Sequence record: NC_028831.1
Reading direction: 5' to 3' (one strand)
DNA: 61,235 bases
Source of the DNA: Escherichia phage slur01
Positions within the stretch are counted from its first letter, which is position 1; every line of letters begins with the position of its first letter. Below, piece after piece: positions 1 to 61,235 of this stretch. The position numbers and the translations under genes were made by a program. The notes under the pieces were generated by a model. That model was not told where the DNA came from. It saw only the letters and a program-made list of their open reading frames with translations, and searched no databases.

Positions 1-127
1 CACAGGCATCCCAGGCTGCACGTCCGGACAACCTATAACCACACCATCGCAGGAACCGCCAAAGTGTCCGCCAGCTTCGCTGATACGGAACTGGTGTCCA
101 TTTTCGTCCTGCTGATAGACCTGCATA
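1..127. repeat. 127-bp terminal direct repeat, identical to 61109..61235 (circular permutation or assembly overlap)
   Basis: Bases 1..127 match the last 127 bases of the window exactly; a minus-strand ORF reads through the junction. Confidence 0.9.
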
Positions 128-429
128 CCTGCCGCAAGAAGCATAGCAATGAAACGCGCTTCTTCCAGATGTCCGCGGTTAAACAGTCGAAGCTGGCGTC
201 CGTCAAACTCTTTGCGTGTAGCCCAGCGATATCCATAGAAAAGCTTGCGTGCGCATTGCTGCCCAATAAGGGAAGCGCCTAAGTGGCTGCGGTTACCGCT
301 TTCAGGGCGATAAGCGTCTTCAATTGTGGGAATGACTACGCCAAGATACTTACGGTAAGTCCCACCCTGATCTTTTTGCACACCGTCATTGATCGCTTGA
401 AGTGTTTTTTCTGCAATATAAATAGCCAT
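1..429 (-). CDS. 5' part of a YqaJ/lambda-Exo-like PD-(D/E)xK recombination exonuclease (ATG at 427..429; continues in 60629..61235)
   Basis: The minus-strand frame is open from the ATG at 429 (MAIYIAEKTLQAINDG...GASLIGQQCARKLFYG...) and joins in-frame to MQVYQQDENGHQF at 126, which equals 61234. The ORF-track 33..266 ORF is in another frame. Confidence 0.7.
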   Translation of the reverse strand, partial: MAIYIAEKTLQAINDGVQKDQGGTYRKYLGVVIPTIEDAYRPESGNRSHLGASLIGQQCARKLFYGYRWATRKEFDGRQLRLFNRGHLEEARFIAMLLAAGMQVYQQDENGHQFRISEAGGHFGGSCDGVVIGCPDVQPGMPV

Positions 430-494
430 TGGAATACCTTAGAAAAATAAGCCGTCTTTCGACGGCTTATGGACACTACAGAGGGAGGGTTATC

Positions 495-1382
495 TTACTG
501 CTGCCACGGCGGGACTGCTGCTTGTGCTGGATGCGGTTCAGCTTGCTGCTGCGGCTGAGCTTGCTGCTGAGGTGCTGCTGCCTGACCCGGCTGTGCTACC
601 TGCTGCGCCCACGGCTGCTGGGCTGCTTCCGGTGCTACTGGCTGTTGTACCGGAGCTTGCTGCACTGGCTGCTGTGGTGCTGCGTTTTGAGCAGGATTAT
701 CCCACGGCTGCGGTGCGGCATTCTGCCACGGTTGTGCTGCTGCGCCCTGCTGTGGTGCTGGTTGCTGCTGCACAGGCTGCTGAACTGGCTGCTGTTGCTG
801 CACCGGAGCTTGCTGCTGTACAGGCGCTTGCTGTTGCTGAGCAAACGGGTTAGCTGCTGGTTGCTGTGGTGCTGCGCCCGGGAAAGCTGGCTGCTGAGCT
901 GGCGCACCTGCACCGAACGGGTTAGCTACTGCCGCTTGAGCACCCATTGCTGGAGCACCTGCTTCTTTTTCTGCGTACTTAACCGGATCGTTGATGTTAG
1001 CATAACCGTTAGGCTCGTTGCTGTCTTCATAACCTTCCTGAGAACGAACTTTCAGACGCAGGTTCAGCGGAATGTTATGCAGTTGAGCAGGAGTATCCCA
1101 GCGAATTACGCCAACCGCATGGGAAAGCGCGCCCAGTTGCTCGTATGCAATACGCACAGTATCTTCGTTGTCGTTGATAACGTTGTAACGAGCAAAGATT
1201 TTACGACCTTTAGCAAAACCATCAATAATGCTAAACGTTACCTGGATCGCCATACCGCCATTTTTGGTCGGTTTAAATTCAGATGCTTCAATTACTGCTT
1301 TATACCAACCTTTCGGCAATGCGCCGTAAGAAGGTGCTTGATAGCTGCTCGCGTCAAAGTGGAAATTAGTTGGCATAGTCAT
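495..1382 (-). CDS. SSB-like ssDNA-binding protein with Q/P/A-rich disordered C-terminal tail (likely Sak4 partner)
   Basis: Globular N-terminal domain of about 140 aa followed by a long Gln/Pro/Ala low-complexity tail; start overlaps the upstream stop (TAATG); sits next to a Sak4-type ATPase. Confidence 0.6.
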   Translation of the reverse strand: MTMPTNFHFDASSYQAPSYGALPKGWYKAVIEASEFKPTKNGGMAIQVTFSIIDGFAKGRKIFARYNVINDNEDTVRIAYEQLGALSHAVGVIRWDTPAQLHNIPLNLRLKVRSQEGYEDSNEPNGYANINDPVKYAEKEAGAPAMGAQAAVANPFGAGAPAQQPAFPGAAPQQPAANPFAQQQQAPVQQQAPVQQQQPVQQPVQQQPAPQQGAAAQPWQNAAPQPWDNPAQNAAPQQPVQQAPVQQPVAPEAAQQPWAQQVAQPGQAAAPQQQAQPQQQAEPHPAQAAVPPWQQ

Positions 1383-2110
1383 TAGTTGATACCTTTCATT
1401 TTGTTGATAACAGAACCTAAGTGTGGGACTTCAACCGCATCTAAACGTCCCGAACGATCCTTAGCGATTGTATTAAAGTCCGGTTGAGTTTGCAAGTAAC
1501 GATACGAGTTACCTTGCTGATCCTTATTTACATTCAGACGAAATACTTCGTCGAAGAAGTAAGGGAGCATTTGCCCCAATTTGGATCCAGGCATAGACGG
1601 AGCATACGCGGTAACACCGGAGACTTCATCTTTGTCTTTGCCCATTTTAGCAGACATATAAACATGTTTGCCAGGAATATCGCGAAATTTACGGATCAGA
1701 TCTTGCATCTTTTCAAGCAAAGTACCATAAGCTTGACGAGGATCTTTCGTTCCCTTTTTCGCGTTGTTTAAACATTGTTCAGCAATTTCGCTCAAGCTGT
1801 CAAGTGCAATAGAATCGAAATACTGTTGGTTAGCTGGAGTTACGCACCACTGATAAGCCGCTTCAACGTCTTCCAGACATTTCACTTCAATTACCGGAAT
1901 ATCGTAAACGATGGGCAAACCCATGTTACCATAAACACGGTTAAGGTTTTCCGCTGCAATAGACAACAGACCGGATTCTGCGCTGATTAAAATTGGTTTA
2001 GGTAATGTGGCTACAAGGCTGGTTTTACCCATACCTGCTTCACCGTAAACCAGAATTTTGACACCTGTGTCCTGCACAACTTGTGAAGACATTTTAATTT
2101 CAATGGCCAT
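1382..2110 (-). CDS. Sak4-like RecA-fold ATPase (single-strand annealing recombinase)
   Basis: Walker A motif GEAGMGKTS near the N-terminus; about 240 aa; RBS AGAGAGG; adjacent to SSB-like and exonuclease genes. Confidence 0.7.
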   Translation of the reverse strand: MAIEIKMSSQVVQDTGVKILVYGEAGMGKTSLVATLPKPILISAESGLLSIAAENLNRVYGNMGLPIVYDIPVIEVKCLEDVEAAYQWCVTPANQQYFDSIALDSLSEIAEQCLNNAKKGTKDPRQAYGTLLEKMQDLIRKFRDIPGKHVYMSAKMGKDKDEVSGVTAYAPSMPGSKLGQMLPYFFDEVFRLNVNKDQQGNSYRYLQTQPDFNTIAKDRSGRLDAVEVPHLGSVINKMKGIN

Positions 2111-2175: not shown

Positions 2176-3102
2176 TTAATCTAAAGCCTGATCACTTTCA
2201 TCGCGGAAATGCATAAAGTTTGCAAAACGCGGTTTATCTTTCACGCCATGAGGGAAGTGTTTATATGAAATAGTCCGACCTTTAATTTTGTCAGGGTTAT
2301 TCCAATAATAAATCTTATCCTCTTGCGTTAGTTTACCAGGACTAACGTTGATTGTATTGCCCGTCTTAACGTCTTTACAAACCAACGTCCCGATCATACC
2401 GTTAGGAACTTTATTTTCCTGATGCGAAGATCGTGTAGTCCTGCCCAGCTCGTTAACAGTAGCTTCATTAAGGTTAGTTTCACCCTCAATAATATCAAGG
2501 ACAATAGCGTCTTCCTGAATAAATCGTTTAATACGAAGATATCCACCTTCACGAACTGTGCCGCGCCCATGTTTATAAGGCTTGTCAGGATCACGGATAA
2601 TAATACCTTCATAACCCATATCAAGCCAGATATTTTCCCAGTAGAGCAGCTCTTGTAAAGACTTAACCACATGCATCTCTACCACTTTCAGGTCGAACAA
2701 TTCACCCTTCGCGTGCTGTGTGGTTATAAAGTCTTTCATCATGTTGTAGCGAGCTTCATACCCCAGCTCTGCTACACTTTCTGCACACAGATCAAAGATG
2801 TGCCATATTAGCAACGGTTCACCTTCAATTGTATTTACCGCACTGGTTGTTTTACGACACAGGTCTGGATCTGTTTCCAACCCTGCTGCAAGTTCACCGT
2901 CATAGCCCATGTACTGGGGACCGCTGAAAATTGCGCTTGTATGGCGGTTTTTAAACAGCTTTAAGCTTCGCCCTACTATCTGCCCGTCCGGATTTAAACC
3001 GCGCACACCGTCGATTTTAGGCAGTATACAGCACGGAAACTTAATCTTTTCTTCAACCGCGTCAGTTGCTAAATGTGGTTTAAATGCCATTGTTAACCTC
3101 AT
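2176..3102 (-). CDS. ATP-dependent DNA ligase
   Basis: Nucleotidyltransferase motif I KIDGVRG (adenylated lysine); start overlaps the RNase H stop (ATGA). An alternative ATG 12 nt downstream has a better RBS. Confidence 0.8.
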   Translation of the reverse strand: MRLTMAFKPHLATDAVEEKIKFPCCILPKIDGVRGLNPDGQIVGRSLKLFKNRHTSAIFSGPQYMGYDGELAAGLETDPDLCRKTTSAVNTIEGEPLLIWHIFDLCAESVAELGYEARYNMMKDFITTQHAKGELFDLKVVEMHVVKSLQELLYWENIWLDMGYEGIIIRDPDKPYKHGRGTVREGGYLRIKRFIQEDAIVLDIIEGETNLNEATVNELGRTTRSSHQENKVPNGMIGTLVCKDVKTGNTINVSPGKLTQEDKIYYWNNPDKIKGRTISYKHFPHGVKDKPRFANFMHFRDESDQALD

Positions 3103-21903: not shown

Positions 21904-22461
21904 ATGAACGGGGCAAGTCAAGAGCAATATGATCGTGACTGGACGAATTACATCCAGTATGCAAATAGCTTGTCCGCTGAAGAGATGGCAATACGTGACA
22001 AAGTTGTTGCTGAGTACATGTTCGACTACAATTGGACTAACGCTTGCATGAGATGCGGGTTCAATGCTATGTTTGCACAGGAGCTTGGCCAACGCTTTGC
22101 CACGGACTGTTATGTTCGATGGAAGCTCAAGGAGATTGAAAGATCCCGTGTTCAACGTACTTCTGAGCAAGCTAACATTGAAGCAGACCTTGAGCGTCAG
22201 CATATCATTGAAGCATTAAAACGTGAAGCTCATTATACAGGACCGGGATCTTCTCAAGCTGCTAGAGTCGCCGCATTGGGCAAGCTTGCACAAATTTATG
22301 ATTTGGATGCTCCCAAGAAGGCTAAGATTGATGTTACTAACAGAGGCGGCGTAATGATAGTCCCTGCTGTAGCAAATATTGACGAATGGGAAAAAACTGC
22401 ATCCGAGTCTCAACAACGACTAGTTAAAGAGACTGAAGATGGAGCTAAACCGACAACCTGA
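21904..22461 (+). CDS. Terminase small subunit
   Basis: 185-aa protein immediately upstream of the large terminase; RBS AAGGGGG. Confidence 0.55.
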   Translation: MNGASQEQYDRDWTNYIQYANSLSAEEMAIRDKVVAEYMFDYNWTNACMRCGFNAMFAQELGQRFATDCYVRWKLKEIERSRVQRTSEQANIEADLERQHIIEALKREAHYTGPGSSQAARVAALGKLAQIYDLDAPKKAKIDVTNRGGVMIVPAVANIDEWEKTASESQQRLVKETEDGAKPTT

Positions 22462-28808: not shown

Positions 28809-28861
28809 TGAAGAAGAGCTCCCGCCGCTTATCCCTACAACCATCGCAATGAGGAAGAAAG

Positions 28862-29368
28862 ATGGAGATTCCACTGATAGTTGAAGATGGTACTGGTGTA
28901 CCGGACGCCAACAGTTATGTTACCATTGAACAAGTCCGCATGTATGCAGCAATGCGAGGTATTGTACTTCCAAGTGAAGACGAAGATCTAAAGACAAAGA
29001 TCTTTGACGCTATGGATTTTGTGGAAGGGTACAGCCAACGCTTTAAAGGTTATAAAATTAACCCACAGCAACCGCTAAATTGGCCACGCTACGGGGTGTT
29101 TGTGGACGGGTTCGAGCTACCCCAAAGCCCCTTACCAAAGGCGCTTATAAACGCTGTTTGCCAGCTTACAGCGGACTCAGCTACTGGCGGTCCTCTTAAT
29201 GGGAAAACTACTGCATATGCAGTCAAAAGAACTAAAGTAGAAGGTCTTGAGATTGAATACGCAACTGGTAGCACAGCACAGTCAGGTCCAGCAAAAACAT
29301 ATGATAAAGCTATGACGTTTTTATCACCTTTGCTGGGTTATCAAATGGGTAACAGATTAATACGGTGA
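28862..29368 (+). CDS. Putative head-tail adaptor/connector protein
   Basis: 168 aa; position between head and tail genes. Confidence 0.4.
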   Translation: MEIPLIVEDGTGVPDANSYVTIEQVRMYAAMRGIVLPSEDEDLKTKIFDAMDFVEGYSQRFKGYKINPQQPLNWPRYGVFVDGFELPQSPLPKALINAVCQLTADSATGGPLNGKTTAYAVKRTKVEGLEIEYATGSTAQSGPAKTYDKAMTFLSPLLGYQMGNRLIR

Positions 29369-29371
29369 TTT

Positions 29372-29752
29372 ATGAGCTTTCCTTATGAGCAGTTAGTTGA
29401 AGCTGCAAAGCAAATGATCAACGACGCTGGCGTTAACTGTACCCTTGTTGTTATGGAGCAAGGGGAAGGTCAAGATGAATGGGACGATCCGAGCGTTGAA
29501 AAACGATACCCATTCATTGGAGCTTTCCTTTCACCGAAGGAAAAGATGATTGGCGGCAGTCTTGTTTCTGCTGGTGAACTGAAAGTGTTGACTTACCCAA
29601 TGACACCTCCATTGACTCGCGATAAAGCAATGACTGCACGCATTGAGCGTGTGTCACCGGATGGGGAACTGGAAGTGTGGACAATAAATGAGTTTGTTGA
29701 TACACGACCAGCTAACGTTTCTGTTCTTTACACTTTTAAGGTGACGCGATAA
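29372..29752 (+). CDS. Putative head closure/neck protein
   Basis: 126 aa; start overlaps the upstream stop; position. Confidence 0.4.
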   Translation: MSFPYEQLVEAAKQMINDAGVNCTLVVMEQGEGQDEWDDPSVEKRYPFIGAFLSPKEKMIGGSLVSAGELKVLTYPMTPPLTRDKAMTARIERVSPDGELEVWTINEFVDTRPANVSVLYTFKVTR

Positions 29753-30159
29753 TGGGATTCGGGGCGGATATTCGACGTGCAAGTCAGAAGGTACTTGTTC
29801 AGACAAGCGAACAGGCCAAAAAAGTCGTTGTCAAGTTCACAGAGAACGTGATACAGGATACTCCTGTTAAGACCGGACGCACAAAAGGTGGTTGGCGGTC
29901 ATCCATTGGTGCGCCGTATGCAACGGAAACTATCCGCCTCGATCCTACTGGAGAGATGGCTAAAGCTGAAGCCCGAGTTATTGCACGCAAACTACCTAAT
30001 GATAAAGACTGGACTTTCTATTTTAGCAACCTGACACCATATGCTGGCAAACTGGAGTTCTTAGGTTGGTCACAGCAAGCCCCGAACGGTATGGTTCGTA
30101 TTAACGTAGCGAAGCTTCCAATGTTGATACGTCAAGCTATAGCAGAAGGAAAACTATAA
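29752..30159 (+). CDS. HK97 gp10-like tail component (neck/tail completion)
   Basis: DTPVKTGRTKGGWRS matches the HK97 gp10-family PVDTGRLRGSW motif. Confidence 0.6.
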   Translation: MGFGADIRRASQKVLVQTSEQAKKVVVKFTENVIQDTPVKTGRTKGGWRSSIGAPYATETIRLDPTGEMAKAEARVIARKLPNDKDWTFYFSNLTPYAGKLEFLGWSQQAPNGMVRINVAKLPMLIRQAIAEGKL

Positions 30160-30608
30160 TGCTTGGATACGATTTCATTAATGATGCATTTAATAAGATG
30201 CTACGCGAAGCAGTTGGACCGGATATTGGTATAGCGTGGAAGAATAAGAAGTTTACACCTAAAGCTAACCAGATGTGGTTAAAGGCAATCAATGCTCCCG
30301 CTTCCACTTACGCTGCAACGCTAGGTGATAACGGTCTGAATGAAATTCCAGGCTTCTACCAAATCACAGTATATAGTCCTTTAAACACTGGAACGTCTAA
30401 GCAGAATCAAATCTTGGATTCTATTCGGAAAAAGTTTAAACTGGGCTTGCGTATCCCGTGCCCGGATGACCACACGTTACGGATTGTCAGTTTAGACTTT
30501 TCGCAAGGTGGACAAACTTCGCTGAACGATTTTACCAAAGGCGGGGTTGAAGATAACTGGGACGTTAACTTTATCACAATCTATTGGTCGGCTCGTGAGC
30601 CGAGGTAA
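30159..30608 (+). CDS. Putative tail terminator/completion protein
   Basis: 149 aa, immediately upstream of the major tail protein. Confidence 0.4.
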   Translation: MLGYDFINDAFNKMLREAVGPDIGIAWKNKKFTPKANQMWLKAINAPASTYAATLGDNGLNEIPGFYQITVYSPLNTGTSKQNQILDSIRKKFKLGLRIPCPDDHTLRIVSLDFSQGGQTSLNDFTKGGVEDNWDVNFITIYWSAREPR

Positions 30609-30622
30609 GAGAGGATCTAAAT

Positions 30623-31546
30623 ATGGCTACAGGTTCACGTTATTCGTGTTACTACGTCAAAGAAGATGTAAGCAACACTACGCCAGCGAGTGCGAAGTTT
30701 ACTCCGTTCCGTGTGACCAGCTCCGGTCTGGACATTAATATTGCAACGCTGGAATCTGAAGAACTGCGCGATGACGCTGAAACTGCGGACTTCCGCCTCG
30801 GTGCTCGCAGTGTTGAAGGTACAGTAACGGGCGAAATGTCCTTCGGCACCTTCGATGATCTTATTGCTGCTGCACTTCGTGGGGAGTGGCAAGACAACGT
30901 CCTTAAAGGCGGTATTATCCGTCAGTCGTTTACTTTCGTAGACTATAACGCAGATCTACCGTCAGGTAAATATACAATTTATCGCGGTTGCGAAGTTAAT
31001 AGCATGACTTTCTCATTGTCTGCTGAAAACATGACCACAGTGGAATTCGGTATTGTTGGTCGCTCGATGGAGATTGCGGAATCGCTTCCATCTGGTGCAA
31101 CTATCAAAGAGCGTACGACTACTTCACCGATGGATGGTTTCTCCGGCCGCTTGCTGGAAAACGACGAAGAAATCAGCGTTATTACGGAAATCGGTCTTAC
31201 CGTTGAAAACGATATTGCACCACGCTTTGTTGTTGGTTCTAAGTTCTCCATTGAACCGTCCGCTGGTCGTCGTGCGGTAACTGGTACAGCTAACGTGTAC
31301 TTCCTGGATAACAAGCTGCGTATGAAGTATCTGGATGAAGTGGAAACTTCAATCAAGTTTGATCTGATTGACCCAAGCAATCCGGAACAAAAATACACTG
31401 TGGAAATCCCTCGCGTGAAGTTCACTGAAGCTCCACGTCCTATTAACGGCGAAGGGGATATCATGCTTAATATGGGCTACCGCGGATTGCTGGACCCAAC
31501 AACCGCAAGTTCCATCAAAATTACCCGCGTTCTAGCGGCAGCCTAA
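30623..31546 (+). CDS. Major tail (tube) protein
   Basis: 307 aa, directly upstream of the chaperone-frameshift-tape measure unit. Confidence 0.65.
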   Translation: MATGSRYSCYYVKEDVSNTTPASAKFTPFRVTSSGLDINIATLESEELRDDAETADFRLGARSVEGTVTGEMSFGTFDDLIAAALRGEWQDNVLKGGIIRQSFTFVDYNADLPSGKYTIYRGCEVNSMTFSLSAENMTTVEFGIVGRSMEIAESLPSGATIKERTTTSPMDGFSGRLLENDEEISVITEIGLTVENDIAPRFVVGSKFSIEPSAGRRAVTGTANVYFLDNKLRMKYLDEVETSIKFDLIDPSNPEQKYTVEIPRVKFTEAPRPINGEGDIMLNMGYRGLLDPTTASSIKITRVLAAA

Positions 31547-31555
31547 GGATAAGAA

Positions 31556-31963
31556 ATGACCGACACCAAAAAAGCCAAAGTTGTAGTAGCTAAAAGCTTC
31601 CGTGATTTTAAAACTGTGAGCCGGGCCAACGACCCGGCAAACACTAAGCCTATGAATGTGGTTATTCCTGGTGTAGGCGACACTGGCGAAAAACTCTACA
31701 TTCGTAGCCGCTACTGCACAGAGTACCGTGATGCTGAACTGAAAGCACAGCGTCAACTGTTGGCTCTTATGCAGGGTAAAGACGGTGAAGTAACGGATGC
31801 TATGAAGGAAGATATCCTTACCCGTTCACTGTGTAACCTTGTAGCAGGTTGGACTTTTGACGAGCCACCGACTGTTGACAACGTGTTTGAGTTCTTAACG
31901 GAGAACCCAACTGTCCGAGAAGATCTTAACGTATTTGCCGCTAAAGATAGTAATTTTTTCTAA
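31556..31963 (+). CDS. Tail assembly chaperone (G-like, 0-frame product)
   Basis: 135 aa between major tail and tape measure genes; ends with slippery heptamer T-TTT-TTC just before the stop. Confidence 0.7.
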   Translation: MTDTKKAKVVVAKSFRDFKTVSRANDPANTKPMNVVIPGVGDTGEKLYIRSRYCTEYRDAELKAQRQLLALMQGKDGEVTDAMKEDILTRSLCNLVAGWTFDEPPTVDNVFEFLTENPTVREDLNVFAAKDSNFF

Positions 31964-32361
31964 AAGCGCGCAGACAGTTAATTGATAAGAAGATCCTCCA
32001 ATGGGAACTAAATAGCAAAGTCCCCGGCGGGGGATCTTCTTTATTATCGCAACTGCAAAAGGTTGAGGAACAGTCTGGTAAGACGCCACCTAAGCTTAAA
32101 GAATATCGGGAAAAGGAAATACCGGTTTGCTTTGAATACCTGTCTACTTTATTTGATGACATTTACACTGGAGGGGATTTTAGTTATACAGAATTGCACA
32201 GCTATCAGGTAACAATGGGCTTACATCTTCAACCGTACGAATGCGAAATACTGCGACAGCTATGGCTTGAAAAGCGCGTGTCTGAAGCTGAACAAAATGC
32301 TAAACTCATGGAAAGTCAAATGCAAAATCAGAATAAAGGTAGAAGGAAAAGGAGAAGGTAA
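31556..32361 (+). CDS. Tail assembly chaperone frameshift product (GT-like; programmed -1 frameshift at 31954..31960)
   Basis: The -1 frame after the slippery site TTTTTTC is open for 133 codons with no ATG and ends at a TAA overlapping the tape-measure ATG. Confidence 0.6.
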
Positions 32362-35300
32362 TGGCCGAAACTGCTTCGCTAGTAATCAGGGTTGACGCGA
32401 AAGGGATTAGCACAGCGGACTCCATGCTGCGTAACCTTGCGCGTACAGGTGACACAGCGGAGCGTTCCGCTCAACGTGTCACATCCAGCTATAAAACATT
32501 GTCTAACACATCTAACGAACTTGCAACTGTCACAAGTCGTTTAGATGCTGCAATTGTAGGAATGATCAGCGTTGACACCATTAACCGTGTTATTTCGCTA
32601 TCGGACTCCTGGACTATCCTCACCAACAAACTTGAACTGGCTCGTACGGGTAATGAAACCGTTGCGGATGCACAGCAACGCGTGTTTGATATTGCCCAGC
32701 GGTCACGTACAAGCTTGGAAGCAACTGCAACTCTATATTCCCGTCTCCAGCGTGCAATGAAGAATACTGGTATGACGGGTATGGAGCTTGGACGTATCAC
32801 TGAAACAATTAACAAAGCGATGATTGTTTCCGGTGCAACGTCACATGAAGCAAGCGCTGCTCTTATTCAGTTTTCGCAAGCAATGGCATCCGGTGTTTTG
32901 CGCGGGGATGAATTCCGTTCTGTTGCAGAACAAGCCCCGCGCTTAACTCAAATCATGTCCGATGCGTTAGGTGTTACCATTGGACAATTGCGTGAAATGG
33001 CTTACAGCGGCAAGTTGAGCGCCGATGTGGTTATCAAATCGTTGTCTGGTGCTGCGGATACAATTGATAAAGAATTTAGCCGCACTATGCCAACGTTTAA
33101 CCAGCAATGGACGGTTGCAACAAACAACTTGACTAAGTTCATGGGCGAATCCCAAAAGACTCAAGGTGCGGTTGCTGCATTGGGACAGACGTTTGTTGCG
33201 TTATCCGAAAACTTAGGAACGGTTGTAACAGTTGGTTCAGCTTTAGCCACAGTGATTACCGCCCGTATCATTACGGCAATGCTTGCTAAGACTAAAGCGT
33301 CTATAGCTGCTGCAAAAGCATCGCAGATGGAAGCTGCACAAACGGCGGCAACTACTGCGGTGATGCAAAGCTCTATTGGCGTTACCGCGCAGAAAGCGGC
33401 TGCGGATCGTGCTGCCTCTCTTGCAGCGTTACAGGTTGCTCGCGGGTCATTAGCGGTTGCTAAAGGTACGGCAGCGGAAGCAGGCGCACGTCTTGCGCTT
33501 ATTAACGCTACCCGTGCGCATTCTGCGGCAATTATGGCGGACGTACAAGCGCGGCAAGCGCTCAATGCTGCGCTTAATGCAACTGTACCAGCCGCAAGCC
33601 GAGCAGCTACAGCAATGAGCGTGCTGCGCGGTACTATGGGGTTAATTGGCGGTCCTGTTGGTGTAGCAATGCTGGCAGCGGGTGCAATTTACTCCTATAA
33701 AGCGTCGTTGGAAGCTGGTCGTGCGGAAAACAATCAGTTTGCGGATAGTGTTGATTCTGTACGCGAGAAACTGATGCAGATGACAGAAGCTCAGTTGGCA
33801 GCTAACGCAGTTAAAGCTCGCGCAATTCTCCCCGAACTTGAAGAGCAAATGAAGCGGGAGCAAACTGCTCTTAAATCTGCAACGGAAACGCAGAAGTTCT
33901 ATGAAGCACAATTAAAACGTCGCGCTGCGTCCGGTCGTAATACAGCTAGTGCCGAGAAGAATTTACAGATTGCTACGGATAACGTCAAGCTTGCTGCTGA
34001 ACGTGCTGAAGAAGCTCAACGCCGTTACAACAATGTCTTAGAAATGACAAGCCCTGCTATCGAGAAGATAATTCCGTTAGCTCGTCAGCTTGCAGCGGAT
34101 ATGAAAGCAGTGCTTAATATCAAATCCGGTCCGCTTATTGACGAGAAAGTGCTTGATCGTTTTAAAGGTCAGTTAGGTGACGTTAACCGTGAGATTGACG
34201 TTAACACGGTTAAAGGTGCTGGTAATGCTCGCCAGGCTGCAATCCTTAGTGGGCTGTATCAAACTCTGGGCAAAGATGCAGACACCTACGGAAGTCTAAT
34301 TCGCAAAGTAGCTATGGGGCAGGATGTTAGCTCTGAAGCAACAAGCGAGTCCGCAAAAGAACTTGTTAAATATGCTCAAGAGCTAGCGGAAGCTTACGGC
34401 AAGAATTATGATCTTGAAGAAGCGGAGAGAAATCGAACCAAAGCTACAAAAGACGCTATTAAGGCGGATCAACAGAACGCCAAAGTTATTGACGATTTAC
34501 GCAACAAGCTTAACGAAGTAACCACAGGGGTTAAGGAAAACGCTAAAGCTAAAGCGCAAGCTGTAGCACTCAATAAGTTAAATGCGTCCGCAACGGCTGC
34601 GGAAAAAGCAGAAGTTGTTAGTCTTGCTGCTGCAATTTACGATGCAGAAGAAGCTCAAAAGAAACTGGACGAGCGTAAGAAGAATCGTAAGTTTGCTCAG
34701 GGTCTGTTAGATGAAGGTATGACAGACTACGCGCAAATTGAATACGAGATGCAAGAAAAGATTATGAAGCTTCACAGGGATCAACAAGCGGATGATCTTG
34801 AGCATTATAAGCTCTACGAAGATGCAAAGACGCAAGTCCTGAAGAAAGCAAGTATGGAAAGAGAAAATCTGGATAAAGTTCTTATGAACCGAATGATATC
34901 TTTTTCTCAGGAATCCTTAGGCATTATAATGGATGGCCTGTCACAGGCTGTAAGCCAGCAGAACTTCTTTTATAAAGCTATGTTTGCAGCACAGAAAGCA
35001 ATGCAAATCCCATCAATCCTTGCCAACACGGAAACGGCAGCATCTGCGGCGCTTGCATGGGGTACACAGCAAGGAGGTGCTACGATGGGTGCAACAATGG
35101 CAGCTATAGTGAAAACTATGGGTTATGCGTCCGCTGCTACTGTGGGTGGCTTGGCGATCGCTGGTATGGCTCACGACGGTATTGATAACGTTCCGCGTGA
35201 AGGTACATGGCTGCTGGATAAGGGTGAACGTGTACTTAATGCTCCGTCTAATGACAAGTTAAATCGCTTCCTGGATAGCCAAGCTTCACAACAAGGTGGC

Positions 35301-56661: not shown

Positions 56662-57465
56662 TTACAAGCCGTTCAGGGCTTCCGGTACTGGCATAGGTAC
56701 GCGACCAGTTACACCATTAAACTTCTTCCAACGTGCATACTGAGTTTTAACGGTATCTTCGTTCAGACCGTGGCGACCAGCCAGATTCAGAACATAAGAG
56801 ATCGGAGCAGGCTGACCCAGCGTAGCGCTAATCTGATCCATCAGAGCCCAGGCACGACCGCAGGAAGTTTCAGGTTGTGGACGACGAACACCATTCTGTT
56901 CAGGCATACGGTTCGCTTCTTTCGCTTTTTCACGTTCAGCTTTTTCGCGGGCTTTTTCAGCAGCCTTTTCAGCCTGTTTAGCAGCGCGGATCTTGTCTTT
57001 GAAGCCTTTGATAAACGAATCCAGTTCGTCAACCATGCTCTGAGCAGCACTTACTGCACCGGACAGATCTTCATCTTTGGATTTTTTAACAACTGCTTTC
57101 AGCTCTTTCAGTTTATTCTTAAAAAGCTTCAGCTGTTCAGAACCCTGAAATTCAGCTACCGTAATCTCTTCAATAGTGCCTTTATCGGCAACATCGGATA
57201 AAACAGACCTCACGGTTTCAACTCCGCGGGAAAGAGCGGTAAATTTATTTTCCGCTACAGCACGAATTTCAGCTTGTTTCTTTTCAGCGGCAGCTTTTTT
57301 CTCTGCTTCTTTTTTCTCTTTTGCTACGCGTGCAGCTTCAGCGGCAGCGGCTTTTTTAGCTTCTGCATCGTTAGCAGTAACTTCTTTCTTTGCAGGCTTA
57401 GCAGATTTTGCAGCGGCAGCAGCGGCTGCGGCAGCAGCGGCTTTCTTATCTTCAATATTACTCAT
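56662..57465 (-). CDS. Ala/Lys-rich histone-H1-like protein with a globular C-terminal domain
   Basis: N-terminal AAAAAAAAAAKSAKPAKK and AEKKAAAEKK repeats; start re-picked at ATG with GGAG RBS. Confidence 0.55.
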   Translation of the reverse strand: MSNIEDKKAAAAAAAAAAAKSAKPAKKEVTANDAEAKKAAAAEAARVAKEKKEAEKKAAAEKKQAEIRAVAENKFTALSRGVETVRSVLSDVADKGTIEEITVAEFQGSEQLKLFKNKLKELKAVVKKSKDEDLSGAVSAAQSMVDELDSFIKGFKDKIRAAKQAEKAAEKAREKAEREKAKEANRMPEQNGVRRPQPETSCGRAWALMDQISATLGQPAPISYVLNLAGRHGLNEDTVKTQYARWKKFNGVTGRVPMPVPEALNGL

Positions 57466-57592
57466 TTTCTTCACTCCGAATTATTATGGGTTCGTTTGTT
57501 ACCAACGGGGTTAAATGTACCAAAGGATTTTGTGACACGCAACCACTTACATAAACATTTTTAAAAATATTTTTGATCAGGGTTAGAACTTA

Positions 57593-58146: not shown

Positions 58147-60123
58147 TTAGAAAGGAACGTAATCCGGATCGTCTACTTGCACAGGGTTAACCACATTGTT
58201 CACCGTTATACCTTGCGTATTCTGCGAAACAATATCGTCCCAACTTACATCATCGTTATAGCTCGGACCTTCTGTTGTTCCATCCTGACCGTATACTTTA
58301 ACCTGAATAGCTTCGTCGTCCTGTGGAGCTTCAAACTTACCGAAACAAGTACCGTCATAATCATAGTTCAATATCTCAGGCCATTTCTTATTGGTATGAA
58401 CTTTGATGTATTTTGGTGTTTTAAGCATTGCAGCAACATCAAGAGCTTCTTCAATAGTTTGTGGTAAAGGTAAATGTGTCCTTTTCTTCCACCATGCGAC
58501 AGCTTTACGACCTGCCCAGTCCCCATGAAGCAGAGCTACCCATTCACTGAATATTTTACTACCGCAATAATAAGTCACCTTCATTGTTGGAGGTTTAGAG
58601 CTGTCATTGCGTTTAGTATGCTTTGCATAAGTAACATGCGTAACTTTGAAGTCTTCAACTACTGGAATATCCTGCTTGATCAGGGCTTCCGTACTTGCAG
58701 CTTTCTTGAGTTTGGTCTGGAACTTAAACTCATGACCGCAAAAGCCTTCTTTAACGTAATCCGTCCCGCGTAGCCTAAATCCTTTCAGATATAATTGTTG
58801 AACTTGTTCCTGTGTGACGCTGTCCATTGGGATTGGTGCGAAGCCACCGCAATAGCGAGCGGATGCATGATTATACGACCCACATACATCGCATTCTTTA
58901 ACCGGAGCAGTGCCAGCACCTTTTTCGCCCGGGCGCTTGGGTTTAACAGGGTCGTTAATAGGGCCCAAACGGCGCGTATTACCGCTGAAATCCAGTACAA
59001 GGCAGTTCTGCTTGGGGCTTGCCGCAATAGCTTGTAAGCGTCCCTCCTGCGTGGAAAGATCAAAGCCCTCCGCGTACACCGGACGCGTACCGCGACCCAG
59101 CATCTGAACCCATAGCACCGCCGACGCAGTGGGACGGAGCATGATAATTAAGTCCAGCATTGGATGATCAAAACCTGTGGTTAAGACGTTATTGTTAGTT
59201 AATGCTCGAAATTCACCGCGCTTGAATTTTTCAATAATCTCGTCACGTTCTTTTGCATCAAGCTTAGAGTGAATACATCCACAGCTAATACCCATATCGT
59301 TCAGCATATCGCACGCGTCTTTAGCGTGTTCAATGCCAGAACAAAATATAAGCCAGCTTTGACGGTCTTCACCACATTCAATTGCTTCCTCAAGTGCGCG
59401 GAGTGTTGCGTCATCGCGGTTTACCGCACTTTGCAGCTCACTCTGAATAAATTCACCGCCGCGTTTACCTACCCCGTTGAGGTCTAGTTCCATCTTAGTA
59501 CGCTTTGGCACAACCGGAAGAAGATAACCTTGTTCCAGAAACCAGTTGAAGGCTTCCGGAGTAGTTGCATCAAACGTTACCTTATCAAATAACGCATCAT
59601 CGTCTTCGTTTTCCTTAACAATTGAACCATACCCCAGTCGATAAGGTGTAGCAGTAAGACCGATGATTTTTAAGTAAGGGTTAACTTCACGCAACGCTGC
59701 AAAGAACTTCTTATACATTGTTGCATCACGCGGACTAATAAGATGCGCTTCGTCCACAAAAATAAGATCAACTTTGCCGAACTTTTTCGGATGCTTAGCA
59801 ACGGACGCAATTCCTGCAAAGGTAATAAGATTGTAGACTTCTTTACGCTTCAAACCCGCGCTGTAAATACCTGCTGGCGCTTCGGGCCAGACTTTCATTA
59901 ATTTATCATAGTTTTGTGCAATTAACTCTTTGACGTGAGTTAACATCATTACGCGCTGGTTTGGATACCATTTGTAAAGCAGATCGAGGAACCCCGCGAT
60001 AACGAGCGATTTTCCTGTCCCTGTTGGTAACAGGATCAAAGGGTTCCCCGCGTTACCCTTTTCAGCATCAAAATAGCGGAATACGCTATAAACTGCTTCC
60101 TGTTGATAATCTCTTAATTTCAT
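58147..60123 (-). CDS. Superfamily-2 DEAH-box DNA helicase with C-terminal extension
   Basis: Walker A LLPTGTGKS, DEAH box FVDEAHLIS, motif III GLTATPYR, motif VI QMLGRGTR; about 250 extra C-terminal residues with Cys cluster CDVCGSYNHASARYCGG. Confidence 0.85.
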   Translation of the reverse strand: MKLRDYQQEAVYSVFRYFDAEKGNAGNPLILLPTGTGKSLVIAGFLDLLYKWYPNQRVMMLTHVKELIAQNYDKLMKVWPEAPAGIYSAGLKRKEVYNLITFAGIASVAKHPKKFGKVDLIFVDEAHLISPRDATMYKKFFAALREVNPYLKIIGLTATPYRLGYGSIVKENEDDDALFDKVTFDATTPEAFNWFLEQGYLLPVVPKRTKMELDLNGVGKRGGEFIQSELQSAVNRDDATLRALEEAIECGEDRQSWLIFCSGIEHAKDACDMLNDMGISCGCIHSKLDAKERDEIIEKFKRGEFRALTNNNVLTTGFDHPMLDLIIMLRPTASAVLWVQMLGRGTRPVYAEGFDLSTQEGRLQAIAASPKQNCLVLDFSGNTRRLGPINDPVKPKRPGEKGAGTAPVKECDVCGSYNHASARYCGGFAPIPMDSVTQEQVQQLYLKGFRLRGTDYVKEGFCGHEFKFQTKLKKAASTEALIKQDIPVVEDFKVTHVTYAKHTKRNDSSKPPTMKVTYYCGSKIFSEWVALLHGDWAGRKAVAWWKKRTHLPLPQTIEEALDVAAMLKTPKYIKVHTNKKWPEILNYDYDGTCFGKFEAPQDDEAIQVKVYGQDGTTEGPSYNDDVSWDDIVSQNTQGITVNNVVNPVQVDDPDYVPF

Positions 60124-60626
60124 AAAGGTCTCACTGTTCCATGATTCTTGTTAAACCCGTATGTAATTTCAGCCTCTTTTCTTGTCTTTATTGCGTCTTG
60201 TAGACTTTCAAAATAACCAAGATGCAGCCGAATACCGTATACATCAATTTGAGCTTTCCATTTCTTATTTGCCTTAGCCCATGTCACTCCAGGACAACCG
60301 CTCTTATTATTCGATGGTAGTTTTCTATTATGGTTGTTATGGTATTTATTACTTTTATTTAGATTAGTTTTCCAATTATGCGTACCATCACCATCATCAT
60401 GATCAATATATTCAGGTTCTTCATCATAGAGCATTTTCCAGATTATACGGTGTGCGTAATAATTAAGACCGTTCATAAAAACCATAATATAGGTTTTACC
60501 ATGATTAAAAGTAACTTCACTCCCTGCAATTTGACCGTTATGGTTCCAAAATAAGTTACCGCTATCTTCGCTATAGCTAAAAATCCTATTGAGTTCTTCT
60601 TGCGTCGGTAACGGCAACCTTTTCAT
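60120..60626 (-). CDS. HNH homing endonuclease with C-terminal AP2 domain
   Basis: HNH segment HRIIWKMLYDEEP...IDHDDGDGTHNW and AP2 segment SGCPGVTWAKANKKWKAQIDVYGIRLHLGYFESLQDA; start at ATG (track uses a TTG at 60632). Confidence 0.7.
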   Translation of the reverse strand: MKRLPLPTQEELNRIFSYSEDSGNLFWNHNGQIAGSEVTFNHGKTYIMVFMNGLNYYAHRIIWKMLYDEEPEYIDHDDGDGTHNWKTNLNKSNKYHNNHNRKLPSNNKSGCPGVTWAKANKKWKAQIDVYGIRLHLGYFESLQDAIKTRKEAEITYGFNKNHGTVRPL

Positions 60627-60628
60627 AA

Positions 60629-61235
60629 TCAATCTTTCCCGTAATAATTAGCTACTTGATAGTTTTGACAACCAACTTTCTGTCCTTGCGTATCCACTGC
60701 GGCGGAATGGAAATTGCAATACCATGTTCCATCTTCTTTTGGTTCAAGGAATTGACATGTGCGGCAGTTTACTTCCGGCATAGTTTTACGCCAGCATAGT
60801 GAGGAGTGATCGCACCATTTACATTCGAAGAAAGTGGAATCTTTAAATGCGCGGTCCGGAATATCTGTAGCAATAGCAATCTGCACACCACGATCAATAT
60901 ACATGTCCGCGGTAACAGGATCAAACGGAATAATTTCTGCGTAAACTTCATCGTCATTCTTGTTTACAGCAAGATATAACGCTGCGCCAAGACCTAGTTT
61001 TCGCATGTACACGTTCATCTGTACATAGTGCTCAGGTTTGGCTTCTTTAACACCTTTAGCTTTCAGCTTTTTAAAAGACTTATCGTTATGCGTCTTCATT
61101 TCGGTGAGCACAGGCATCCCAGGCTGCACGTCCGGACAACCTATAACCACACCATCGCAGGAACCGCCAAAGTGTCCGCCAGCTTCGCTGATACGGAACT
61201 GGTGTCCATTTTCGTCCTGCTGATAGACCTGCATA
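60629..61235 (-). CDS. 3' part of the YqaJ/lambda-Exo-like PD-(D/E)xK exonuclease (5' part at 1..429 across the junction)
   Basis: In frame with the 1..429 segment through the terminal repeat; C-terminal Cys cluster CKWC...CWRK...CRTC; total about 302 aa. Confidence 0.7.
   Translation of the reverse strand, partial: MQVYQQDENGHQFRISEAGGHFGGSCDGVVIGCPDVQPGMPVLTEMKTHNDKSFKKLKAKGVKEAKPEHYVQMNVYMRKLGLGAALYLAVNKNDDEVYAEIIPFDPVTADMYIDRGVQIAIATDIPDRAFKDSTFFECKWCDHSSLCWRKTMPEVNCRTCQFLEPKEDGTWYCNFHSAAVDTQGQKVGCQNYQVANYYGKD
61109..61235. repeat. 127-bp terminal direct repeat, identical to 1..127
   Basis: Exact identity with the first 127 bases of the window. Confidence 0.9.

What the first reader, a model, noticed from the sequence alone, without database searches (positions are those of the whole stretch)
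1..2110. Recombination module (YqaJ-like exonuclease, SSB-like protein, Sak4-type ATPase) spanning the sequence junction
The exonuclease ORF is split by the linear representation (5' end at 1..429, 3' end at 60629..61235) and is followed by translationally coupled SSB-like and Sak4-like genes. The exonuclease carries a C-terminal four-Cys cluster, and the SSB-like protein has a Q/P/A-rich tail instead of the usual acidic tip.
Basis: partly seen in the sequence, partly recalled or inferred. Interest (0 to 1): 0.4.

Follow-up and report, generated by a model that had tools for sequence, protein, structure and literature searches.

The report
Known Seuratvirus phage recombination gene module
This is the ordinary, already annotated DNA recombination/replication gene set of a CAjan-like E. 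coli phage, and the exonuclease gene looks split only because a circular assembly was cut open inside it; two small details are not in the literature searched here (a conserved uncharged "PPW" tip on the DNA-binding protein, and a second four-cysteine module on the nuclease).

Summary
The interpretation needs corrections.

- **What the window is.** It is a circular assembly of a Seuratvirus, 98% identical to Escherichia phage CAjan, with an exact 127-bp end overlap.
- **The split gene.** Removing the overlap restores a 302-aa exonuclease identical to CAjan gp49, which is contiguous in about 30 related records. The split is a linearisation artefact.
- **Gene order.** All genes are on the minus strand. 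The order is Sak4 (2110→1382), SSB (1382→495), exonuclease. The exonuclease is last, not first.
- **Coupling.** Only Sak4 and the SSB are translationally coupled (TAATG). A terminator-like hairpin separates the SSB from the exonuclease. The exonuclease is instead coupled, through an inserted HNH gene, to an SF2 helicase.
- **The exonuclease.** It matches no Pfam model, including YqaJ. It belongs to PHROG 1990, "Cas4-domain exonuclease". Its fold sits equally close to lambda exonuclease and Cas4. It has eight invariant cysteines: a Cas4-type set (C59 plus CX2CX5C) and a second Cys4 module.
- **The SSB.** It is a DUF669 protein with a PrgE-like OB fold. Its Q/A/P tail is almost uncharged, but it ends in a conserved PPW motif, parallel to the NDYPPF tip that recruits Sak4 in phage HK620.

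Verdict: a known module, low interest, with two minor new descriptive details.

The parts
1..127 (.). Left copy of the exact 127-bp terminal duplication. It is the overlap of a circular assembly, and the true circle is 61,108 bp.
   Evidence: prefix equals suffix for exactly 127 bases. 127 is a common maximum assembler k-mer (own knowledge).
61109..61235 (.). Right copy of the same 127-bp duplication.
1..429 (-). Exonuclease CDS, 5' part (aa 1-143). Includes C59 (codon 253-255) and catalytic D128.
   Evidence: PHROG 1990 at E=3e-118.
60629..61108 (-). Exonuclease CDS, 3' part (aa 144-302 plus stop). Includes E146-x-K148, Q173xxxY177 (61007-61021), CKWCDHSSLC (60794-60823) and the second Cys4 module CRTC...C...C (60668-60766).
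   Evidence: AF2 model pLDDT 94.6. Fold matches.
442..470 (-). Terminator-like hairpin ATAAGCCGTC-GAAA-GACGGCTTAT followed by TTTTT, between the SSB stop and the exonuclease RBS/ATG.
   Evidence: The same site is annotated as a rho-independent terminator in phage SA80RD.
963..1382 (-). DUF669 SSB, OB-fold domain (aa 1-140).
495..962 (-). DUF669 SSB, Q/A/P-rich tail (aa 141-295) plus stop. It is predicted here to be disordered (inference from composition; only residues 142-150 were modelled, at pLDDT below 50). It has four PW motifs, and the terminal PPW lies at 504-512.
1382..2110 (-). Sak4-like RecA-core ATPase (AAA_24). Walker A GEAGMGKT lies at 2021-2044. Its stop overlaps the SSB start (TAATG).
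   Evidence: PF13479 at E=1.2e-27 and PHROG 124 at E=1.7e-59. Junction. Motif coordinates.
60120..60626 (-). HNH homing-type endonuclease inserted between the exonuclease and the helicase. GC is 35%, against 45-46% in the neighbouring genes. It is not part of the core module.
   Evidence: PHROG 99 at E=5e-53. Among the 25 records listed, only two cover this stretch (SA80RD, VogelGryff); the rest cover 88% of the query. A third homologue in phage slur01 is cited in SA80RD's annotation note. GC values.
58147..60123 (-). SF2 (ResIII/Helicase_C) helicase. Its ATG overlaps the HNH stop (ATGA). In relatives that lack the HNH gene it directly abuts the exonuclease.
   Evidence: Exonuclease-helicase adjacency in L005, L010, L011 and L012.
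2176..3102 (-). ATP-dependent DNA ligase, the conserved upstream neighbour of Sak4.
   Evidence: Synteny.

Best explanation
The locus is the recombination/replication-restart module of a Seuratvirus (Queuovirinae), read from a circular assembly that happened to be opened inside the exonuclease gene.

**Proposed mechanism**
1. A PD-(D/E)XK exonuclease resects double-stranded ends 5'->3' and leaves 3' single-stranded tails. Its core resembles lambda exonuclease and Cas4. It carries a Cas4/AddB-type four-cysteine 'iron staple' and an extra C-terminal Cys4 module. It probably works with the SF2 helicase to which it is translationally coupled.
2. The DUF669 (PrgE-like OB-fold) SSB coats the single-stranded DNA. 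It is the only SSB candidate in the genome, so it probably serves replication as well.
3. The SSB's long uncharged Q/A/P linker presents a conserved PPW tip. That tip recruits the RecA-core ATPase Sak4 onto SSB-coated DNA.
4. Sak4 then performs ATP-dependent single-strand annealing.
5. Ligase, RNase H and RusA, encoded upstream, finish the products.
6. The hairpin between the SSB and the exonuclease probably attenuates transcription, so that the stoichiometric SSB is made in excess over the enzymes.

**Shown here:** gene identities, folds, motif conservation, gene junctions, synteny, and the artefactual nature of the split.
**Inferred:** all biochemical activities, the role of PPW, the attenuation, and the metal content of the cysteine sites.
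For: **Identity of the phage and of the split**
- The window is 98% identical to CAjan over 6 kb, and more than 30 Seuratvirus records match.
- The exonuclease is contiguous in CAjan at 38041-38949, and the window protein is 100% identical to it.
- The start of the CAjan record (small terminase subunit) maps to window 21904, far from the junction.
- A Seuratvirus assembly is reported to circularise, consistent with headful packaging (PMC9022592).

**Families**
- PHROG 1990 at 3e-118, PF05037 at 2.4e-14, PF13479 at 1.2e-27 and PHROG 124 at 1.7e-59.

**Exonuclease**
- D128, E146, K148, Q173 and Y177 are invariant. So are C59, C239, C242 and C248, and C258, C261, C274 and C290, across 120 homologues.
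- AF2 model pLDDT is 94.6.
- Foldseek's best match is Cas4 SSO0001 at E=2.5e-6.

**SSB**
- PPW lies within the last 15 residues in 118 of 121 homologues.
- In a search using only the N-terminal domain, with no word bias, 115 of the best 150 representatives have PPW and 23 more have [PA]W.
- In HK620 the last six residues (NDYPPF) of the DUF669-like SSB are required for Sak4 loading and recombineering (PMC5928155).

**Organisation**
- The order ligase, AAA_24, DUF669, exonuclease, helicase recurs in five divergent loci.
- No other SSB is annotated in CAjan.
Against: - No biochemical data exist for any of these three proteins.
- The HK620 Sak4 and SSB are not detectably similar to the window proteins by BLASTP or hhalign. 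HK620 HkaK has no Pfam hit in the current release. The transfer of function therefore rests on shared family models (AAA_24, PHROG 124) and on the paper's HHpred statement.
- PPW is followed by 2-11 more residues, unlike SSB tips whose terminal carboxylate is bound. The docking mode, if there is one, must differ.
- The exonuclease lies behind a terminator-like hairpin and is coupled to the helicase, so it may belong functionally to a helicase-nuclease pair rather than to Sak4/SSB.
- The fold search cannot separate Cas4-type from lambda-exonuclease-type nucleases.
Confidence: 0.8

Rival explanations
1. One reading: a lambda-Red-like module whose exonuclease is a YqaJ/lambda-exonuclease family member with a C-terminal four-Cys zinc finger.
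For:
Against: - There is no PF09588 or other Pfam match, even at E<=10.
- The strong match is to PHROG 1990, 'Cas4-domain exonuclease'.
- The invariant C59 plus CX2CX5C set is the Cas4/AddB/Dna2/EXO5 signature, which lambda-exonuclease-type enzymes lack (signature from PMC5704561, and own knowledge).
- Foldseek ranks Cas4 first.
- There are eight conserved cysteines, not four.
Confidence: 0.12
2. The 127-bp repeat is a genuine physical terminal redundancy, so virion DNA ends inside the exonuclease gene.
For: Only the repeat itself.
Against: - More than 30 related records, opened at different points, carry the gene intact.
- The conventional start at the terminase genes is 22 kb away.
- A related genome circularises on assembly, and its authors suggest headful packaging.
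- 127 bp equals a standard assembler k-mer (own knowledge).
- Even a true direct terminal repeat would restore the gene once the DNA circularises or forms concatemers.
Confidence: 0.03
3. The DUF669 protein is primarily the replicative SSB. Its PPW tip docks replisome parts (polymerase, clamp-like factor, primase, helicase) or the exonuclease rather than Sak4, and Sak4 acts as a mediator or loader in replication restart. This overlaps with the best explanation and is not exclusive of it.
For: - No other SSB is annotated in CAjan.
- Kazlauskas et al. argue that DUF669 proteins are replicative SSBs in viruses that lack known SSBs (PMC4889955).
- The module sits among ligase, RNase H, helicase, primase and polymerase genes.
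Against: - Sak4 and the SSB are translationally coupled, and that adjacency is conserved in 5 of 5 loci.
- The HK620 precedent shows tip-dependent Sak4 recruitment.
Confidence: 0.3
4. By analogy with the N4 SSB, the tail of the DUF669 protein activates host RNA polymerase for late transcription.
For: - The N4 SSB is linked to DUF669 at 98% HHsearch probability (PMC4889955).
- N4 has the same gene set of Cas4-motif exonuclease, Sak4 and SSB.
- That the N4 SSB is required for late transcription is my own recollection; no paper was retrieved for it.
Against: - The N4 SSB tail is basic (...SLFGKK), with no PPW and no Q/P tract.
- Nothing here links the Seuratvirus protein to transcription.
Confidence: 0.04

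Closest known systems
Escherichia phage CAjan gp49-gp50-gp51 (Seuratvirus, NC_028776)
   Same: - DNA is 98% identical and the gene order is the same.
- The exonuclease protein is 100% identical.
- RefSeq already names the genes 'Cas4-domain exonuclease', 'hypothetical protein (DUF669)' and 'Sak4-like ssDNA annealing protein'.
   Different: - The window has an HNH endonuclease inserted between the exonuclease and the helicase. CAjan lacks it; SA80RD and VogelGryff have it.
- The window is opened at a different point of the circle.
Phage HK620 Sak4 (HkaL) plus cognate SSB (HkaK), characterised experimentally (PMC5928155)
   Same: - A RecA-core-only AAA_24 ATPase is encoded immediately upstream of a non-canonical SSB.
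- The SSB tip contains PP followed by an aromatic residue (NDYPPF there, VPPWQQ here).
- The tip is needed for Sak4 loading in HK620.
   Different: - No pairwise or hhalign similarity is detectable.
- The HK620 SSB has a short, acidic tail ending exactly at Phe. This one has a 155-residue, nearly uncharged Q/A/P tail, and PPW is followed by QQ.
- HK620 pairs the module with Abc2, a RecBCD hijacker, instead of its own exonuclease.
Phage N4 gp42 exonuclease / gp44 Sak4-like / gp45 SSB
   Same: - It has the same three functions.
- The N4 exonuclease also ends with CX2CX5C (CNYCSIFNIC).
- The N4 SSB is linked to DUF669.
   Different: - The order differs, with a primase between the exonuclease and Sak4.
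- The N4 exonuclease lacks the second Cys4 module.
- The N4 SSB tail is basic, with no PPW.
Cas4 nucleases (SSO0001 4ic1; Pcal_0546 4r5q), and AddB/Dna2/EXO5 nuclease domains
   Same: - PD-(D/E)XK core with D...ExK and QxxxY motifs.
- One N-terminal Cys plus C-terminal CX2CX5C.
   Different: - No match to the Pfam Cas4 or PDDEXK_1 models.
- No CRISPR context.
- An extra, invariant CX2C-X12-C-X15-C module of about 45 residues at the C-terminus.
Lambda exonuclease / LHK-Exo / YqaJ family
   Same: - The same presumed role of 5'->3' resection feeding an annealing protein.
   Different: - No sequence-profile match.
- Lambda-type enzymes have no cysteine cluster.
- The partner here is a RecA-like Sak4 plus an SSB rather than a Rad52-like Red-beta.
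PrgE of plasmid pCF10 (8s4s)
   Different: - No sequence-detectable similarity.
- PrgE is 144 aa, with no long low-complexity tail and no Sak4 partner.

Membership tests
Cas4-family nuclease (PD-(D/E)XK plus Fe-S module) | Catalytic PD-(D/E)XK motifs (D, ExK) and the QxxxY motif | tested here: met
   D128, E146, K148, Q173 and Y177 are invariant in 120 homologues.
Cas4-family nuclease (PD-(D/E)XK plus Fe-S module) | Four conserved cysteines: one N-terminal plus C-terminal CX2CX5C | tested here: met
   C59, C239, C242 and C248 are invariant. The definition is from PMC5704561.
Cas4-family nuclease (PD-(D/E)XK plus Fe-S module) | Match to the curated Cas4 or PDDEXK_1 profile (PF01930, PF12705) | tested here: not met
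   No Pfam family at E<=10 and no NCBIfam family. Only PHROG 1990, 'Cas4-domain exonuclease', matches, at 3e-118.
Cas4-family nuclease (PD-(D/E)XK plus Fe-S module) | RecB/Cas4-like fold | tested here: met
   [not shown]
Cas4-family nuclease (PD-(D/E)XK plus Fe-S module) | Actually binds a [4Fe-4S] or [2Fe-2S] cluster | not testable with these tools
   Needs purified protein.
YqaJ / lambda-exonuclease family (PF09588) | Match to the PF09588 profile | tested here: not met
   No hit at E<=10.
YqaJ / lambda-exonuclease family (PF09588) | Lambda-exonuclease-like fold | tested here: met
   [not shown]
Sak4 (RecA-core-only SSAP, AAA_24) | AAA_24 / PHROG 124 profile match with Walker A and Walker B | tested here: met
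   PF13479 at 1.2e-27, 97 bits against a cutoff of 27. PHROG 124 at 1.7e-59. GEAGMGKT at aa 23-30. Walker B was read by eye as IALD at aa 101-104. HK620 Sak4 also hits AAA_24.
Sak4 (RecA-core-only SSAP, AAA_24) | Adjacent cognate ssb gene | tested here: met
   TAATG overlap with the DUF669 gene. The adjacency holds in 5 of 5 divergent loci.
Sak4 (RecA-core-only SSAP, AAA_24) | ATP-dependent ssDNA binding and annealing, stimulated by the SSB | not testable with these tools
   Shown only for HK620.
DUF669 phage SSB (PF05037) | PF05037 profile match above the gathering score | tested here: met
   54 bits against a cutoff of 21, E=2.4e-14, covering aa 8-144.
DUF669 phage SSB (PF05037) | OB fold | tested here: met
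   [not shown]
DUF669 phage SSB (PF05037) | Acidic C-terminal tail, as stated for the family in PMC4889955 | tested here: not met
   The tail has 3 acidic residues in 155, and the last 15 residues of the homologues average 0.23 acidic residues. Acidic PPF or LPF tips occur in only 2 of the best 150 representatives.
DUF669 phage SSB (PF05037) | Homology to the experimentally characterised HK620 SSB | tested here: inconclusive
   BLASTP E=5.1. hhalign probability 1.9%, although the aligned GWY...GRK segment is plausible. The link rests on the paper's own HHpred analysis.
Canonical bacterial SSB (PF00436) | SSB profile match and DDDIPF-type tip | tested here: not met
   PF05037 is the only Pfam hit. 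There is no PDB sequence hit. The tip is VPPWQQ.

The most novel reading that the evidence does not exclude
A large clade of DUF669 phage SSBs has replaced the classical acidic SSB tip with an uncharged, internally placed motif, consensus HPAQxA[TV]PPW[AQ]Q. Further PW repeats are scattered along a Q/A/P linker. This could be a distinct docking code for Sak4, and possibly for the exonuclease, whose family-specific second Cys4 module may be the receptor or a second metal site. If so, recruitment of the annealing protein by the SSB tip could be tested with a simple peptide.
Probability: 0.35. Interest if true: 0.4.

Novelty: already known. Interest (0 to 1): 0.18.

Why it matters
It matters little as a discovery. 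The module is already annotated in RefSeq for a 98%-identical phage, and its logic (Sak4 plus a cognate SSB) has been shown experimentally in HK620.

It is useful in three smaller ways.
- It corrects the annotation: the exonuclease is Cas4-type rather than YqaJ, the gene order and coupling are as described here, and the split is an artefact.
- The conserved PPW tip contradicts the published generalisation that DUF669 proteins have acidic tails. It offers a clean peptide-level handle for testing SSB-Sak4 docking in Queuovirinae.
- The invariant second Cys4 module defines a subfamily of phage Cas4-like exonucleases that Pfam and NCBIfam do not cover.

Tried and rejected
- **PDB sequence searches.** Single-sequence and profile searches for all three proteins returned only noise or compositional hits such as ankyrin repeats and the ZipA linker.
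- **Family libraries.** Pfam at E<=10, NCBIfam and PADLOC gave nothing for the exonuclease.
- **Direct comparison with HK620.** BLASTP and hhalign against HK620 Sak4 and SSB showed no significant similarity. A direct homology claim was dropped in favour of shared family models and the literature.
- **Cysteine geometry.** I wanted to measure Cys S-S distances in the AF2 model to tell a zinc site from an Fe-S site, but the coordinates are not exposed.
- **Bias in the first PPW count.** The count came from a word-seeded search using the full-length query. It was repeated with the N-terminal domain only in an index-free search, and the result held.
- **A defence-system reading.** This was considered for the Cas4-like nuclease with the helicase. 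The exonuclease has no PADLOC hit, the helicase has only generic SF2 hits, and the context is the replication module of a lytic phage.
- **Tandem DNA repeats as the source of the tail.** Only short 12- and 18-bp arrays of 2-3 copies are present, so the tail is low-complexity rather than a recent repeat expansion.
Full report
**1. What is in the sequence**

The first 127 bases of the window are identical to the last 127. When one copy is removed, a 61,108-bp circle remains.

On the minus strand an ORF starts at the ATG at 429 and runs off the left end. It continues in frame from 61108 to a TGA ending at 60629. The result is a single 302-aa protein. This protein is identical to database protein P0001 and to gp49 of Escherichia phage CAjan.

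**2. Where the window comes from, and whether the split is physical**

The window matches more than 30 Seuratvirus (Queuovirinae) genomes. It is 98% identical to CAjan over the first 6 kb.

In CAjan the exonuclease is contiguous at 38041-38949. In SA80RD it is contiguous at 37901-38809. The conventional record start, the small terminase subunit gene, maps to window position 21904, about 22 kb from the junction.

A Seuratvirus genome (OddieOddie) is reported to circularise on assembly, which its authors take to suggest headful packaging (PMC9022592). A 127-bp overlap is also the length of a commonly used maximum assembler k-mer (own knowledge).

**3. Gene order and coupling**

All the genes lie on the minus strand. 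Transcription therefore runs in this order:

- ligase (3102→2176)
- Sak4-like ATPase (2110→1382)
- DUF669 SSB (1382→495)
- exonuclease (429→1, then 61108→60629)
- HNH endonuclease (60626→60120)
- SF2 helicase (60123→58147)

The junctions are as follows.

- **Sak4/SSB.** The Sak4 stop overlaps the SSB start (TAATG), with AAGG eight bases upstream. This pair is translationally coupled.
- **SSB/exonuclease.** They are 65 nt apart. The spacer holds a perfect 10-bp-stem hairpin (ATAAGCCGTC-GAAA-GACGGCTTAT) followed by TTTTT, then an AAGG ribosome-binding site. SA80RD annotates the same site as a rho-independent terminator. No promoter-like site was found in the spacer. I infer partial termination that lowers expression of the downstream enzymes relative to the SSB.
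- **Exonuclease/HNH.** The exonuclease TGA is followed after 2 nt by the HNH ATG.
- **HNH/helicase.** The HNH stop overlaps the helicase ATG (ATGA).
- **Relatives without HNH.** There the exonuclease and the helicase abut or overlap: a 1-nt gap in CAjan and in L005, a 4-nt overlap in L010, and a 1-nt overlap in L011 and L012.

Sak4 and the SSB are coupled to each other. The exonuclease is coupled to the helicase.

**4. The exonuclease**

*Profile matches.* It matches no Pfam family even at E<=10, which excludes YqaJ, Cas_Cas4 and PDDEXK_1. It matches no NCBIfam or PADLOC model. It matches PHROG 1990, "Cas4-domain exonuclease", at E=3e-118 over the whole length.

*Conserved residues.* In 120 homologues of 53-74% identity, the following residues are invariant:

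- D128, E146, K148, Q173 and Y177, which form the PD-(D/E)XK and QxxxY motifs
- eight cysteines

C59 with C239-X2-C242-X5-C248 reproduces the four-cysteine pattern that defines Cas4, AddB, Dna2 and EXO5 nucleases (definition in PMC5704561; spacing from own knowledge). C258-X2-C261-X12-C274-X15-C290 forms a second, family-specific set. It lies in a small beta-hairpin, strand and helix module at the C-terminus.

All eight cysteines are also kept in an Alteromonas phage homologue and in three metagenomic loci. Phage N4 gp42 has the CX2CX5C motif but ends right after it, so it lacks the second module.

*Fold.* The AF2 model is confident, at pLDDT 94.6.

| Method | Hit | Score |
|---|---|---|
| Foldseek | Cas4 SSO0001 | E=2.5e-6 |
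| Foldseek | LHK-Exo / lambda exonuclease | E=3.5e-5 and weaker |
| Foldseek | EXO5 | E=3.9e-4 |

The fold alone therefore cannot decide between the lambda-exonuclease/YqaJ type and the Cas4 type. The cysteine signature and the PHROG match tip the assignment to Cas4-like. Whether the second Cys4 set binds zinc or a second Fe-S cluster cannot be told from these data.

**5. The SSB-like protein**

*Domain.* Residues 8-144 match Pfam DUF669 at 54 bits, against a cutoff of 21. The AF2 model of residues 1-150 has pLDDT 85.9 and the classic b1-b2-b3-alpha-b4-b5 OB topology.

No other SSB is annotated in CAjan, so this protein is probably also the replicative SSB. That agrees with the argument made for DUF669 proteins in PMC4889955.

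*Tail.* Residues 141-295 are 32% Q, 26% A and 20% P, with three acidic and no basic residues.

The tail is not featureless, however. It holds four PW motifs and ends in AVPPWQQ.

- Among 121 homologues, 118 have PPW in the last 15 residues. The consensus is HPAQxA[TV]PPW[AQ]Q.
- That set was retrieved with a word-seeded search on the full-length query, so it could be biased towards similar tails. I repeated the test with only the OB domain in an index-free phmmer search of 1.84 billion representatives.
- Of the best 150 representatives, 115 have PPW and 23 more have [PA]W near the end. Only two have acidic ...DDVPPFE or ...DDDSDLPF tips.
- When the linker composition shifts to A/P-rich (L005), the PW repeats and the terminal PPW persist.

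*Functional precedent.* In HK620, the last six residues (NDYPPF) of the DUF669-like SSB are required for Sak4 to bind SSB-coated ssDNA and for stimulation of annealing and recombineering (PMC5928155). PP followed by an aromatic residue is therefore the common element. The acidity, and the placement at the extreme C-terminus, are what this clade has lost.

I infer that PPW is the partner-docking tip. This is not demonstrated. The HK620 proteins are too divergent to align with these.

**6. The Sak4-like protein**

It matches AAA_24 at E=1.2e-27 and PHROG 124, "Sak4-like ssDNA annealing protein", at E=1.7e-59. Walker A (GEAGMGKT, aa 23-30) was confirmed by translation. Walker B was read directly from the sequence as IALD (aa 101-104). 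HK620 Sak4 hits the same Pfam model.

**7. Conservation of the module**

The order ligase, AAA_24, DUF669, (0-2 small genes), eight-Cys exonuclease, SF2 helicase recurs in five divergent loci. One of them is Alteromonas phage R7M. N4 carries the same three functions in a different order.

**8. Mechanism**

This section is inferred, apart from the anatomy described above.

1. The exonuclease, probably assisted by the coupled SF2 helicase, resects ends 5'->3'.
2. The DUF669 SSB coats the resulting ssDNA.
3. The SSB's flexible uncharged linker presents PPW to load Sak4.
4. Sak4 anneals complementary strands in an ATP-dependent manner.
5. Ligase, RNase H and RusA, encoded upstream, complete the products.

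The likely biological roles are recombination-dependent replication and concatemer formation for headful packaging, together with repair.

**9. Verdict**

This is a known, already annotated module. The family assignment of the exonuclease, the gene order and coupling, and the cysteine count need correcting.

Two descriptive details were not found in the literature searched here: the conserved neutral PPW tip, and the second invariant Cys4 module. They are modest. Interest is low.

Noticed in passing
window 60120-60626 (-): An HNH endonuclease (PHROG 99, 168 aa from its ATG) is inserted exactly between the exonuclease and the helicase. Its GC is 35%, against 45-46% for the neighbours. Among the 25 records listed, only SA80RD and VogelGryff cover this stretch; the others match 88% of the query. 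SA80RD's annotation note also cites a homologue in phage slur01. It looks like a mobile homing endonuclease that preserves translational coupling on both sides.
   Followed up: partly
window 429-1385 (+), and L005 4814-5750: The CAG/GCT-rich DNA that encodes the Q/A/P tail produces long spurious ORFs in other frames and on the opposite strand, for example a 318-aa plus-strand ORF in the window. In a JGI metagenome contig (L005), the gene caller reported two opposite-strand genes in place of the real 318-aa DUF669 gene. This is an annotation hazard for the family.
   Followed up: partly
window 58147-60123 (-), and L005, L010, L011, L012: The Cas4-like exonuclease is always immediately upstream of an SF2 ResIII/Helicase_C helicase and overlaps or abuts it. 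The helicase has a C-terminal extension of about 300 aa that contains a CDVCGSYNHASARYC motif. This suggests a split helicase-nuclease resection machine. It was not examined further.
   Followed up: partly
L009 (phage N4) 1344-2318, 4521-5276, 5322-6119: The N4 gp42 exonuclease ends with CNYCSIFNIC, the same CX2CX5C iron-staple pattern. It sits near a Sak4-like gene (gp44) and the N4 SSB (gp45), whose tail is basic (...SLFGKK). The Cas4-motif exonuclease, Sak4 and DUF669-like SSB trio is therefore not confined to Queuovirinae.
   Followed up: partly
window 495-962 (-) compared with homologues P0121-P0127: Tail length varies among close relatives of 88-97% identity (262, 288, 294, 295 aa) while the terminal ...AVPPWQQ stays fixed. 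This is consistent with a length-tolerant linker and a constrained tip.
   Followed up: no
window 56662-57474 (-): A 270-aa Ala/Lys/Glu-rich protein with an 11-residue poly-Ala run. In relatives it is annotated as a 'transcriptional activator FtrA domain-containing protein'. It is low-complexity and was not examined.
   Followed up: no
CAjan record 28848-34508 (L001, L013), with equivalent genes in the window downstream of the helicase: The 7-deazaguanine (preQ0) DNA-modification genes (DpdA-like transglycosylase, FolE, QueD, QueC, QueE) lie just downstream of the module, as expected for Queuovirinae. The recombination enzymes therefore act on modified DNA.
   Followed up: no
window 429/61108 junction: The point where the assembly was opened falls exactly on a codon boundary, between aa 143 and 144 of the exonuclease. 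This looks coincidental.
   Followed up: yes
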